64,000 nucleotides of DNA from Escherichia coli (GTDB lineage Bacteria; Pseudomonadota; Gammaproteobacteria; Enterobacterales; Enterobacteriaceae). The stretch lies in NCBI RefSeq assembly GCF_016026235.1, contig NZ_CP065613.1. One strand, given 5' to 3'. Made by a program: the position numbers. This document shows positions 19,901-22,900 of the stretch, one piece after another (within the stretch, counting starts at the first letter, position 1; each line of letters starts with the position of its first letter).

Positions 19901-22900
19901 CCTGCCGGGAATAAACATAAACAGTTTCCCCGGAGTAACGCTTTCAGAAAACTGCCCTCCTGAAGAAGAATAAAATAAAGAAGATGACAGTTCCTGCGCT
20001 GAATGCTGAGTACTCAGTACAATATTCTATGGACAGGATGACATTTTTATAAATAACAAAAACCATTTAATACTGACATATCAGGAAAATCCCCCTCCCT
20101 GCCGGCACAGATAAAATGCACCATTTTTTCTTCAAATACTTCTGTATAATCGCAGCCAGCCAATGATGAGAATGGATAAAAACAACACTTCCTCGACAAA
20201 CACAAAAACCAGCCTTCATTTTCACATCATCATCCAGTTTTAATTAAACCCTGACGAGCGACAGTATTTCAGTTCAGGAATTAAAAGCCAGCTATTACTC
20301 AGTAAAAACACCACCAACTAATAATATCTCAGCAGATATTTCCTGACCAGGATGACACATTTATTAAAGATTTTTAACAGGACACTTCACATTACTGAAC
20401 GCTATTCCGACAGTATCACTACACAAATAAAAAAGGGAACTGGATAAATATTCATGCCGGAAGAATGGTGTAACAAAAGCATTTAATCATTACGTGCGTA
20501 TTCCTCTCTATTCGATCACGGTTTGGCCAAACCGTGATCGATTCAGATGCCATTTTGCAAGTACGCATGACCCGGAAGGGAAACACTTAACAACATGGTA
20601 TCAACAGATATCATTACGTGCGCACTCTTATAAAAATACACAGCAGAAGCAAGATAACTCTAAACGTAAATTTAATATCTCCCACTGACTGCCCCGACAA
20701 TATACTGAAAAATACTCACCTCAGTAAACATAAACACACCTGATAATCAGGCTGCAAGATGAATATTTTCTCCTTTACGGAGTAATCAGCCTGCTGTTTA
20801 ACAATAACCGCGTATTTTCATGGAAGGATATCACCCAATAACGGATAACTCCTGCCCTCCTTCATGTTAATACGCAACATCCCCATCGATTCCAAACAAT
20901 TTCAGACAGATATTATCTCCGTGAATCCCCCGCCACCTTTCCGGTGTGCGGGGTTTTGTCTTTTTTCACCGGGAATACATGTATGAATCCGTCTGATGCC
21001 ATTGAGGCAATTGAAAAACCGCTCTCCTCCCTGCCTTATTCACTTTCCCGTCACATCCTGGAACATCTGCGCAAACTCACCAGCCACGAACCCGTGATTG
21101 GCATTATGGGGAAAAGCGGGGCCGGTAAATCCTCACTCTGTAATGCACTGTTTCAGGGGGAGGTCACCCCGGTCAGTGATGTTCACGCCGGCACCCGGGA
21201 AGTGCGGCGCTTCCGTCTGAGTGGCCACGGTCATAGCATGGTTATCACTGACCTGCCCGGGGTGGGCGAGAGCCGGGACAGGGATGCAGAGTATGAGGGC
21301 CCTGTACCGTGACATTCTGCCTGAACTGGACCTGGTACTGTGGCTGATTAAAGCCGATGACCGTGCCCTGTCTGTGGATGAGTATTTCTGGCGACACATC
21401 CTGCACCGGGGACATCAGCGGGTACTGTTTGTGGTGACGCAGGCCGACAAAACGGAGCCCTGCCATGAATGGGATATGGCCGGTATTCAGCCTTCTCCTG
21501 CACAGGCACAGAATATTCGCGAAAAAACGGAGGCGGTATTCCGTCTGTTCCGGCCCGTACATCCGGTTGTTGCCGTATCGGCCCGCACCGGCTGGGAACT
21601 GGATACGCTGGTCAGTGCGCTCATGACAGCGCTTCCCGACCATGCCGCCAGTCCCCTGATGACCCGACTGCAGGACGAGCTGCGCACGGAATCTGTCCGG
21701 TCTCTGGCCCGTGAACAGTTTACCGGTGCGGTGGACCGGATATTTGACACGGCGGAGAGCGTCTGTATTGCCTCTGTTGCACGCACGGTTCTGCGTGCCG
21801 TCCGTGACTCGGTGGTCTCTGTTGCCCGTGCGGTATGGAACTGGATTTTCTTCTGAACCTGTCGTGACTGATGCCCACCCTGACTCTGAGTCTGCTCACA
21901 AAAGCGCTGTTTTCGTTGCTGTCTCTCTTGTCCGTGCAATAGCTCAATAATAGAATAAAACGATCGATATCTATTTTATCGATCGTTTATATCGATCGAT
22001 AGGCTAATAATAACCTTTGTCAGTAACATGCACAGATACGTACAGAAAGACATTCAGGGAACAACAGAACCACAATTCAGAAACTCCCACAGCCGGACCT
22101 CCGGCACTGTAACCCTTTACCTGCCGGTATCCACGTTTGTGGGTACCGGCTTTTTTATTCACCCTCAATCTAAGGAAAAGCTGATGAAACGACATCTGAA
22201 CACCAGCTACAGGCTGGTATGGAATCACATTACGGGCACCCTGGTGGTGGCTTCCGAACTGGCCCGCTCACGGGGAAAACGCGCCGGTGTGGCGGTTGCG
22301 CTGTCTCTTGCTCCTGTCATGTCAGTCCCGACACTGGCTGCTGACATCGTTGTACGCCCGGGAGAAACCGTGAACGGCGGAACACTGGCAAATCATGACA
22401 ACCAGATTGTCTTCGGTACGACCAACGGAATGACCATCAGTACCGGGCTGGAGTATGGGCCAGATAACGAGGCCAATACCGGCGGGCAATGGGTACAGGA
22501 TGGCGGAACAGCCAACAAAACGACAGTCACCAGTGGTGGTCTTCAGAGAGTGAACCCCGGTGGAAGTGTCTCAGACACGGTTATCAGTGCCGGAGGCGGA
22601 CAGAGCCTTCAGGGACGGGCAGTGAACACCACGCTGAATGGTGGCGAACAGTGGATGCATGAGGGGGCAATAGCCACAGGAACCGTCATCAATGATAAGG
22701 GCTGGCAGGTCGTCAAGCCCGGTACAGTGGCAACGGATACCGTTGTTAATACCGGGGCGGAAGGGGGACCGGATGCAGAAAACGGTGATACCGGGCAGTT
22801 TGTTCGCGGGGATGCCGTACGCACAACCATCAATAAAAACGGTCGCCAGATTGTGAGAACTGAAGGAACGGCAAATACCACTGTGGTTTATGCCGGCGGC

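What the first reader, a model, noticed from the sequence alone, without database searches (positions are those of the whole stretch)
21958..22000. Intact agn43 phase-variation switch upstream of a full-length Ag43
Three GATC sites at the expected spacing lie upstream of an uninterrupted 1039-codon flu gene, predicting Dam/OxyR-dependent ON/OFF switching of this adhesin. The copy sits inside a pheV-type island next to aerobactin genes rather than in the K-12 CP4-44 context, so it may be an island-borne agn43 allele.
Basis: partly seen in the sequence, partly recalled or inferred. Interest (0 to 1): 0.3.

Follow-up and report, generated by a model that had tools for sequence, protein, structure and literature searches.

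The report
Canonical agn43 Dam/OxyR phase switch
This is the well-known DNA-methylation on/off switch in front of an intact antigen 43 adhesin gene, carried on a pheV genomic island of a kind already described in uropathogenic E. coli, so the finding is correct but ordinary.

Summary
GATC sites lie at 21962, 21981 and 21994, with the same 19/13 spacing as in K-12. They sit just downstream of a TTGTCC-17-TAGAAT promoter and inside the best OxyR-consensus matches of the whole window. A 204-nt leader (Rfam IS102/IsrC, 252 bits) follows, ending in an intrinsic terminator. After it comes an uninterrupted 1039-codon Ag43 gene (22184-25303; NCBIfam auto_Ag43, 1873 bits). The 86-bp core differs from the experimentally characterised K-12 region at 2 positions, both polymorphic among natural alleles.

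The island reading also holds. A 22-nt copy of the pheV 3' end (attR) at 34014-34035 abuts yghD, and iucDCBA lies at 81-5829.

None of this is new. GI-pheV islands with aerobactin, flu and yee modules are described in CFT073, EC958 and UMN026. The allele is a mosaic, K-12-like in its passenger head (class C1-like) rather than Ag43a-like.

Three GATCs within 40 bp is not rare by chance. The evidence is the homology, not the cluster.

In passing, the flu coding sequence has no GATC (about 9 expected). Ten other alleles have 0-2. The neighbouring yee module has none in 4.9 kb. This suggests selection against GATC around the switch.

The parts
21928..21933 (+). -35 hexamer TTGTCC of the agn43 promoter
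   Evidence: Promoter scan, 17-nt spacer. Identical in K-12.
21951..21956 (+). -10 hexamer TAGAAT. Transcription is inferred to start about 21960-21962.
   Evidence: The Rfam IsrC model starts at 21960. K-12 isrC is annotated as starting at the G of GATC-I.
21962..21965 (.). GATC-I (Dam target)
   Evidence: Conserved in 11/11 alleles.
21981..21984 (.). GATC-II (Dam target), 19 bp after GATC-I
21994..21997 (.). GATC-III (Dam target), 13 bp after GATC-II
21960..22018 (.). OxyR-type operator. It consists of two overlapping 37-bp matches to ATAGnTnnnAnCTAT-N7-ATAGnTnnnAnCTAT, at 21960-21996 and 21982-22018, and covers all three GATCs.
   Evidence: Each match scores 14/20. Only 3 positions in 64 kb score that high, and 2 of them are here.
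21958..21988 (.). Perfect 12-bp inverted repeat AAACGATCGATA/TATCGATCGTTT that holds GATC-I and GATC-II. It forms the 5' hairpin of the leader RNA.
   Evidence: The K-12 left arm has one mismatch.
21960..22163 (+). agn43 leader RNA, equivalent to the sRNA IsrC (Rfam IS102, RF00124)
   Evidence: 252 bits against a gathering score of 46, full-length match 1-206. Fold z-score -4.9.
22123..22156 (+). Intrinsic terminator in the leader (12-pair stem, loop of 4, T-run). It is the site of premature termination or antitermination.
   Evidence: PMC5389530, citing Wallecha 2014.
22172..22177 (+). Shine-Dalgarno AAGGAA, 6 nt before the ATG
   Evidence: Read from the sequence.
22184..25303 (+). agn43/flu CDS of 1039 codons plus stop. 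Signal peptide 22184-22339, alpha passenger 22340-23836 (ends at D551|P552), AC1 plus beta-barrel 23837-25300.
   Evidence: Pfam ESPR, AIDA, AC_1 and Autotransporter. NCBIfam NF033177, 1873 bits against a cut-off of 1200. PDB 4KH3, E = 1e-245. The cleavage positions are inferred by alignment to K-12 plus my own knowledge of the K-12 processing sites.
20983..21856 (+). yeeP-like GTPase gene upstream of the switch, with a 1-nt insertion (G at 21297) that shifts the frame
25418..27940 (+). yeeR-like gene downstream. It is the only GATC-rich block of the flu/yee region.
28876..33903 (+). yee module: DUF932, antirestriction, RadC, DUF987, CbeA/CbtA and DUF4942
   Evidence: The GATC-free stretch 28585-33515 covers most of it.
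34014..34035 (+). attR, an imperfect repeat of the last 23 nt of tRNA-Phe pheV (one G missing). This is the right end of the island; the K-12 pheV-yghD spacer follows.
   Evidence: yghD at 34184-34720.
81..5829 (-). Aerobactin genes iucD-iucC-iucB-iucA. iucB has an 11-bp deletion near 3811.
   Evidence: The iucA start coordinate is inferred from the AF3 annotation.

Best explanation
Window 21928-22183 is the canonical regulatory region of agn43 (flu).

Anatomy. A sigma-70 promoter (-35 at 21928, -10 at 21951) fires at about 21960. The first ~40-60 transcribed base pairs are an operator for the LysR-type repressor OxyR and contain three Dam sites (GATC at 21962, 21981, 21994).

Switch. If the three sites are unmethylated, OxyR binds, blocks transcription (OFF) and shields the sites from Dam. 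If Dam methylates them first, OxyR cannot bind and the gene is ON. Each replication fork produces hemimethylated DNA on which Dam and OxyR compete again. Both states are therefore heritable but switch at roughly 10^-3 per generation.

Downstream. Transcripts carry a 204-nt leader (IsrC) whose intrinsic terminator (22123-22156) stops part of them before the coding sequence. Read-through yields Ag43, a self-associating autotransporter that makes cells clump and form biofilm.

Shown here: the sequence anatomy, its near-identity to K-12, its conservation across alleles, the intact gene and the island context.

Inferred from published K-12 work: OxyR binding, methylation dependence, switching and leader termination.
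For: - GATC triad with K-12 spacing.
- Promoter, operator and leader differ from K-12 at only 2 positions between 21925 and the ATG. Both positions vary among natural alleles.
- 25 complete E. coli genomes match the 86-bp core at 99% identity or better, and one of them (strain cq9) was shown to be 100% identical.
- Best OxyR-consensus scores of the whole window fall on the triad.
- Promoter-like site.
- Rfam IS102/IsrC, 252 bits. Terminator and fold z-score of -4.9.
- Intact Ag43: NCBIfam equivalog 1873 bits, Pfam architecture, PDB 4KH3.
- The triad keeps its spacing in 11/11 alleles, including O157 cah.
- The mechanism is as described in PMC13337833, PMC2909390, PMC3764049 and PMC5389530.
Against: - Nothing in the sequence argues against it.
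- Functional state was not tested. dam and oxyR lie outside the window.
- The two SNPs relative to K-12 (G after GATC-I; GATAGG after GATC-III) have not been tested experimentally as far as I could read. The primary mutagenesis papers, PMC135096 and PMC2838033, are not held.
- A GATC triad by itself is expected by chance about 3 times in 64 kb.
Confidence: 0.9

Rival explanations
1. The switch is present but does not phase-vary in this strain. It would be locked ON or OFF because of the two operator SNPs, the perfected inverted repeat, or the strain's Dam/OxyR levels.
For: Two differences from K-12 lie inside or next to the operator. Their effect on OxyR affinity was not measured, and the primary mutagenesis papers could not be read.
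Against: The same two variants occur together in strain OkiPb01684 and singly in other alleles. G after GATC-I is the majority state, in 9 of 11 alleles. At least 25 complete genomes carry an 86-bp core at 99% identity or better. All three GATCs, the -10 hexamer and the CGATCG contexts are unchanged.
Confidence: 0.07
2. The GATC cluster is a chance or composition effect with no regulatory meaning.
For: GATC triads within 40 bp are expected by chance. There are three in this window, two of them inside coding sequences.
Against: The core is 84/86 identical to a region whose function is established experimentally. The spacing is fixed in alleles whose intervening bases differ. The triad coincides with the best OxyR matches in the window. 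These are the only GATCs in about 4.8 kb.
Confidence: 0.01
3. The main product of 21960-22163 is a free-standing trans-acting small RNA (IsrC), and the GATC/OxyR element controls that sRNA rather than Ag43.
For: Full-length Rfam IS102/IsrC match ending at a strong terminator. K-12 annotates isrC as an ncRNA. The fold is stable, with a z-score of -4.9.
Against: The RNA is co-linear with flu and has no separate promoter between it and the ATG. The literature treats IsrC as the terminated agn43 leader, with flu expression depending on antitermination (PMC5389530). No trans target is known to me. The two roles are not mutually exclusive.
Confidence: 0.02

Closest known systems
agn43 (flu) regulatory region of E. 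coli K-12 MG1655 in cryptic prophage CP4-44, with IsrC leader
   Same: Same promoter hexamers, same three GATCs at 19/13 spacing, same leader and terminator. The 86-bp core is 84/86 identical and the rest of the leader is identical. The gene has the same 1039 codons at 95% amino-acid identity. The flanking gene order yeeP-flu-yeeR-yee is the same.
   Different: The location is a pheV island, not CP4-44. There are two operator-adjacent SNPs. yeeR is longer here (840 vs 510 aa). The signal peptide and the last ~90 codons come from a different allele lineage.
GI-pheV / PAI-pheV of UPEC (CFT073, UMN026, EC958; intP4.1 type) with shiF-iucABCD-iutA-sat, nan, flu and yee modules
   Same: iucDCBA with a shiF-like MFS gene, then the flu module, the yee module and an imperfect attR of pheV.
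   Different: No nan module lies between iuc and flu; IS3/IS66 debris is there instead. The island abuts yghD directly, with no kps capsule cluster. iucB carries an 11-bp deletion. The Ag43 is only 86% identical to the allele of a similar island in strain AF3. pheV, intP4, iutA and sat lie outside the window.
Ag43 class C1 (K-12 prototype) versus C3 (Ag43a/Ag43b of CFT073), classification of Ageorges et al. 2019/2023
   Same: Codons 51-250, the head of the passenger, are 97-99% nt identical to K-12, the C1 prototype (PMC6668479).
   Different: I did not run their phylogenetic classification. Codons 1-50, 251-300 and 951-1039 are only 83-85% identical to K-12 and match other alleles (L001, L010), so the allele is a recombinant mosaic.
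Other Dam/OxyR epigenetic switches: Salmonella/P22 gtr and opvAB, phage Mu mom
   Same: GATC sites lie inside OxyR half-sites, and methylation and OxyR binding are mutually exclusive (PMC2909390, PMC4856963).
   Different: agn43 has a single repressor site downstream of the -10 with three GATCs. gtr and opvAB use alternative upstream OxyR sites with four GATCs and resemble pap in logic.

Membership tests
agn43 Dam/OxyR phase-variation switch | Three GATC sites at fixed 19/13-bp spacing in the regulatory region | tested here: met
   21962, 21981 and 21994. Same as K-12 and 9 other alleles.
agn43 Dam/OxyR phase-variation switch | The GATCs lie within a single OxyR operator placed just downstream of the -10 hexamer | tested here: met
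   By sequence only. The 14/20 consensus matches at 21960 and 21982 are the top scores of the window. The -10 ends at 21956.
agn43 Dam/OxyR phase-variation switch | Sequence homology to the experimentally defined K-12 element | tested here: met
   84/86 identical over 21925-22010, and the leader is otherwise identical.
agn43 Dam/OxyR phase-variation switch | Methylation-sensitive OxyR binding, with heritable ON/OFF states that depend on dam and oxyR | not testable with these tools
   Needs methylation calls, footprinting or reporter assays. dam and oxyR are not in the window.
IsrC / IS102 RNA (Rfam RF00124), the agn43 leader | Score above the Rfam gathering threshold over the full model, ending at an intrinsic terminator | tested here: met
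   252.2 bits against 46, model positions 1-206. Terminator at 22123-22156.
Ag43/Cah self-associating autotransporter | NCBIfam equivalog NF033177 above cut-off, with ESPR signal peptide, AIDA-type beta-helix repeats, AC1 autochaperone and beta-barrel | tested here: met
   1872.9 bits against 1200. Pfam PF13018, PF16168, PF18883 and PF03797. PDB 4KH3, E = 1.3e-245.
Ag43/Cah self-associating autotransporter | Uninterrupted reading frame with conserved processing sites (signal cleavage after residue 52, alpha/beta cleavage at D551-P552) | tested here: met
   No internal stops. Residues align without gaps to K-12, including AAD at 52-54 and IDPT at 550-553. Actual cleavage was not tested.
pheV-integrated genomic island (GI-pheV) | Direct repeat of the pheV 3' end (attR) at the island-core junction | tested here: met
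   The 22-nt repeat at 34014-34035 corresponds to the last 23 nt of K-12 pheV minus one G. Co-linearity with the K-12 pheV-yghD spacer starts exactly there.
pheV-integrated genomic island (GI-pheV) | pheV tRNA gene and P4-type integrase (intP4) at the left end | not testable with these tools
   The left end is outside the window. No tRNA was found in the window.
pheV-integrated genomic island (GI-pheV), intP4.1 module set | shiF-iucABCD-iutA-sat, nan, flu and yee modules | tested here: inconclusive
   iucDCBA, the shiF-like MFS gene, flu and yee are present. No nan module was seen. iutA and sat would lie left of the window.

The most novel reading that the evidence does not exclude
The three switch GATCs are kept isolated on purpose. 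Selection removes every other GATC from the agn43 transcription unit and its flanks: none in 1.4 kb upstream, and none in the 3.3 kb of leader plus CDS. As a result no neighbouring Dam, SeqA or MutH target interferes with the heritable methylation state of the triad. An alternative version is that this surface-antigen gene and the yee module partly escape methyl-directed mismatch repair, which would favour allelic mosaicism.

Evidence so far:
- GATC is the most depleted of all 256 tetranucleotides in flu (0 observed, 9.3 +/- 2.3 expected, z = -4.1).
- Codon choice avoids it specifically. Asp GAT is used 0/6 times before C and 33/52 times otherwise. Ile ATC is used 0/5 times after G and 14/26 times otherwise.
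- Ten other alleles hold 0-2 GATC although 6-10 are expected.
- GATC gains relative to the window allele total 5, against about 40 expected if the same substitutions are placed at random.
- The serine-protease autotransporter gene sat in a related island has a normal count (12 vs 13).
Probability: 0.2. Interest if true: 0.45.

Novelty: already known. Interest (0 to 1): 0.12.

Why it matters
As an annotation it is useful but routine. It says this strain can probably switch Ag43-mediated aggregation and biofilm formation on and off, and that the gene travels on a pheV island with siderophore genes. This is already documented for UPEC.

It also adds one more mosaic allele, with a C1-like head in an island that usually carries a C3-type Ag43a. 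That is relevant to typing schemes and to which cells can co-aggregate.

The only thread with wider potential is the GATC-free state of the agn43 coding sequence and the yee module. If selection maintains it, it would bear on how epigenetic switches are insulated from genome-wide Dam, SeqA and MutH traffic, and on why GATC-free tracts accumulate in mobile elements. That phenomenon has been noted (Forde 2015) but not explained.

Tried and rejected
1. I first assumed a GATC triad was statistically striking. Simulation showed it is not, so the argument rests on homology and conservation.
2. I looked for pheV itself and for an exact or near-exact 23-mer or 16-mer of its 3' end. There was no tRNA and no hit with up to 3 mismatches, because the repeat has a 1-nt deletion. 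It was found by reading the junction and confirmed against K-12.
3. I tried to read the primary agn43 papers (Wallecha 2002, PMC135096; Kaminska 2010, PMC2838033; Wallecha 2014, PMC4135670). None is held, so the exact +1 and the mutational data are taken second-hand or from memory.
4. A scan of 100,044 species-representative genomes for the switch pattern gave one hit. It is a 1.5-kb contig binned as Collinsella that is 99.7% identical to E. coli O157 cah upstream DNA. This says nothing about distribution beyond 'essentially Escherichia', in line with PMC10058404.
5. I considered that GATC loss in flu might be a property of autotransporter genes or of island DNA in general. This was rejected: sat has 12 observed against 13 expected, iuc has 27 against 33, and the yeeR block has 24 against 18.5.
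6. I considered that the absence is only inherited from a GATC-free ancestor. The substitution-shuffle null argues against this (5 gains against ~40 expected; O157 cah 0 against 6.4, P = 0.002). The alleles are not independent, however, and the null ignores amino-acid constraints.
7. The reading in which escape from mismatch repair drives variability is weakened by papers reporting that chromosomal mutation rates do not depend on nearby GATC content (PMC3306285 and PMC5376664, abstracts).
8. I found no paper in the held library that links agn43 to a GATC-free coding sequence. Older subscription literature could not be searched.
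Full report
**Observation.** The stretch 21958-22000 reads AAACGATCGATATCTATTTTATCGATCGTTTATATCGATCGAT. GATC sites lie at 21962, 21981 and 21994. The spacing of 19 and 13 bp is the same as in K-12 MG1655, where the sites are at 1818/1837/1850 of locus L003, immediately upstream of flu. The downstream ORF starts at ATG 22184, preceded by AAGGAA at 22172-22177, and ends with the stop at 25301-25303. That is 1039 codons with no internal stop. My first attempt at translation was off by one base.

**Is it more than chance?** Not from the cluster alone. With 242 GATCs in 64 kb, about three triads within 40 bp are expected. The window has three (21962-21994, 48808-48837, 60590-60611), and random placement gives at least one in about 90% of trials. 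Four other lines of evidence are decisive:
- Over 21925-22010 the sequence is 84/86 identical to the K-12 regulatory region. The rest of the leader down to the ATG is identical.
- A sigma-70-like promoter, TTGTCC-17 nt-TAGAAT at 21928-21956, sits directly in front.
- I scored the whole window on both strands against the OxyR consensus ATAGnTnnnAnCTAT-N7-ATAGnTnnnAnCTAT. Only three positions reach 14/20, and two of them are 21960 and 21982, together covering the triad.
- In eleven alleles (the window plus ten loci from complete E. coli genomes, including O157 cah) the coding sequences differ from the window's by up to 20.6%. The three GATCs keep exactly the 19/13 spacing while the intervening bases vary.

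**What else is in the element.** Rfam places a full-length IS102/IsrC RNA (RF00124) at 21960-22163, at 252 bits against a gathering score of 46. This is the agn43 leader. It begins at the operator and ends in an intrinsic terminator: a 12-pair stem at 22123-22150 followed by a T-run. It folds much better than shuffles, with a z-score of -4.9, and has a 5' hairpin formed by the perfect 12-bp inverted repeat that holds GATC-I and GATC-II. The literature treats IsrC as the prematurely terminated leader, with flu expression depending on antitermination (PMC5389530, citing Wallecha 2014).

**The protein.**
- NCBIfam equivalog auto_Ag43: 1873 bits against a cut-off of 1200.
- Pfam ESPR (6-52), AIDA repeats, AC_1 (573-690) and Autotransporter (770-1015).
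- Best solved relative: the Ag43a passenger 4KH3, E = 1.3e-245.
- 95% identical to K-12 Ag43 without gaps, 98% to strain OkiPb01684 and 86% to the allele in the aerobactin/pheV island of strain AF3.

A sliding comparison shows a mosaic:
- Codons 51-250, the adhesive head, are 97-99% nt identical to K-12 and only 59-79% identical to the AF3, L005 and L007 alleles.
- Codons 1-50, 251-300 and 951-1039 are only 83-85% identical to K-12 and match other alleles.

K-12 is the prototype of class C1 and CFT073 Ag43a/b belong to C3 (PMC6668479). This is therefore a C1-like recombinant. I did not run that classification.

**Context.**
- iucD, iucC, iucB and iucA lie at 81-5829 on the minus strand, followed by a shiF-like MFS gene.
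- IS3 and IS66 fragments follow, then a DUF3987/YfjI gene.
- Next come the yeeP-like GTPase gene (20983-21856), agn43 and a long yeeR-like gene (25418-27940).
- The yee module follows: DUF932, antirestriction, RadC, DUF987, CbeA/CbtA and DUF4942.
- At 34014-34035 there is TTCGATTCCGAGTCCGGCACCA. Aligned to K-12, similarity begins exactly at the last 23 nt of pheV, with one G missing here. It continues almost perfectly through the pheV-yghD spacer into yghD.
- This is the attR of a pheV-integrated island. Core genes follow: gsp, sslE, glc and the C0719 sRNA.

**Mechanism.** By homology, this is the Dam/OxyR epigenetic switch.
- OxyR bound to the unmethylated operator represses transcription and protects the GATCs from Dam (OFF).
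- Methylation of the GATCs abolishes OxyR binding (ON).
- Replication produces hemimethylated DNA on which the two compete again. The states are heritable and switch at about 10^-3 per generation (PMC13337833, PMC2909390 and PMC3764049).
- The leader terminator adds a second layer of control.

The anatomy and its conservation are shown here. Binding, methylation dependence and switching are inferred.

The two differences from K-12 are G instead of A after GATC-I, and GATAGG instead of GATAAG after GATC-III. Both are natural polymorphisms. G after GATC-I is the majority state, in 9 of 11 alleles. Both variants occur together in OkiPb01684. 25 complete genomes carry the 86-bp core at 99% identity or better, and one listed hit (strain cq9) is 100% identical.

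**Comparison with what is known.** Ag43 on PAI/GI-pheV together with aerobactin is listed for CFT073 and UMN026 (PMC7545054). The modular structure shiF-iucABCD-iutA-sat / nan / flu / yee, with an imperfect attR, is described in detail for intP4.1 GI-pheV, including recombination in the flu module (PMC11537424). The finding is therefore already known. The local particulars are the missing nan module, the island abutting yghD with no capsule cluster, a C1-like mosaic allele, and two probable pseudogenes.

**Seen in passing: a GATC desert.** Apart from the triad, GATC counts against Markov expectation are as follows:

| Region | Content | GATC observed | Expected |
|---|---|---|---|
| 20540-21961 | yeeP-like region | 0 | 4.8 |
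| 21998-25338 | leader + flu CDS | 0 | 8.9 |
| 25339-28584 | yeeR block | 24 | 18.5 |
| 28585-33515 | yee module | 0 | 20.3 |

- With the protein and codon usage held fixed, flu should hold 9.3 +/- 2.3 GATCs, and none of 2000 shuffles reached zero.
- GATC is the most depleted of all 256 tetranucleotides in flu, at z = -4.1.
- Codon choice is context-specific. Asp GAT is used 0/6 times before C and 33/52 times otherwise. Ile ATC is used 0/5 times after G and 14/26 times otherwise.
- K-12 flu also has none. Across eleven alleles the counts are 0-2 against 6-10 expected.
- If the substitutions separating each allele from the window allele are re-placed at random on sites of the same base and codon position, about 40 GATC gains are expected and 5 are seen. 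For O157 cah it is 0 against 6.4, P = 0.002. The alleles are not independent, and protein constraints are ignored.
- The autotransporter gene sat in a related island is normal, at 12 against 13.

GATC-free tracts of at least 1 kb enriched in mobile elements, including GI-pheV of EC958, were reported by Forde et al. 2015, who suggested selection against Dam methylation (PMC4659465). I found no paper in the held library that ties this to agn43.

The yee module has no known Dam switch and is equally GATC-free. The more economical explanation is therefore an element-wide avoidance, from restriction or leading-region ancestry, or from continuing selection of unknown cause. Insulation of the switch is the less economical reading. 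The mismatch-repair-escape version is weakened by reports that chromosomal mutation rates do not track nearby GATC content (abstracts).

**Verdict.** The element is the textbook agn43 switch on a textbook island type. Interest is low. The GATC-desert pattern is the only thread that might repay further work.

Noticed in passing
window 20540-25338 and 28585-33515 (also L001, L003-L010): Apart from the three switch sites, there is no GATC in the yeeP-like region, the leader plus agn43 CDS (0 against ~9 expected; the most depleted tetranucleotide, z = -4.1) or 4.9 kb of the yee module (0 against ~20). The yeeR block between them has 24. Ten other alleles hold 0-2 GATC. Gains are about 8-fold fewer than a substitution-shuffle null predicts. 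GATC-free tracts in mobile elements are known in general (Forde 2015), but I found no link to agn43.
   Followed up: partly
window ~3811 (iucB, minus strand 3157-4093): An 11-bp deletion relative to the intact iucB of strain AF3 puts the first ~100 codons out of frame, so aerobactin synthesis may be defective here. It could also be an assembly error. The rest of iucB-iucA differs by only 7 of 2839 bases.
   Followed up: partly
window 20983-21856, indel at 21297: The yeeP-like GTPase gene just upstream of the switch carries a 1-nt insertion (G) relative to the intact 290-aa homologue. This splits it into two ORFs (20944-21312 and 21221-21856). yeeP is also a pseudogene in K-12.
   Followed up: partly
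window 22184-25303: The Ag43 allele is a recombinant mosaic. The head (codons 51-250) is K-12-like at 97-99% nt identity. Codons 1-50, 251-300 and 951-1039 are only 83-85% identical to K-12 and match other alleles (L001, L010). The best full-length match in 5426 complete genomes is 98.1%.
   Followed up: yes
window 34014-34184: The island's attR (pheV 3' end minus one G) is followed directly by the K-12-type pheV-yghD spacer and yghD/gspM. No kps capsule cluster lies between the island and the type II secretion genes, and no nan module lies between iuc and flu.
   Followed up: partly
window 22028-22183: An in-frame ATG at 22028 keeps the frame open through the whole leader, terminator hairpin included, giving a mechanical ORF of 1091 codons. 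The annotated K-12 start and the Shine-Dalgarno sequence point to 22184.
   Followed up: no
window 21958-21988: GATC-I and GATC-II sit in a perfect 12-bp inverted repeat with a 7-nt spacer. K-12 has one mismatch in the left arm. In RNA it forms a 10-pair 5' hairpin of the leader. The terminator scan flags it on the minus strand.
   Followed up: no
window 48808-48837 and 60590-60611: Two other GATC triads within 40 bp, both inside coding sequences (sslE and the ORF at 59931-60764). They serve as chance-level controls for the cluster argument.
   Followed up: no
window 28016-28249: The IrmA-like ORF is only 78 aa and matches positions 1-33 of the 109-position Pfam model. The homologue in related islands is 151 aa (456-bp CDS), so this copy is probably truncated.
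   Followed up: no
L012 (JAIJJM010000733.1, 1560 bp): The only hit of the switch pattern among GTDB species-representative genomes is a contig binned as a Collinsella MAG. It is 99.7% identical to the E. coli O157 cah upstream region and 92% identical to the yee module, so it is almost certainly a mis-binned E. coli fragment.
   Followed up: partly
window 53085-53306 and 10073-10189: Rfam finds the C0719 sRNA (295 bits) in the glc region and an ALIL frameshifting pseudoknot of an IS3-family element (120 bits).
   Followed up: no
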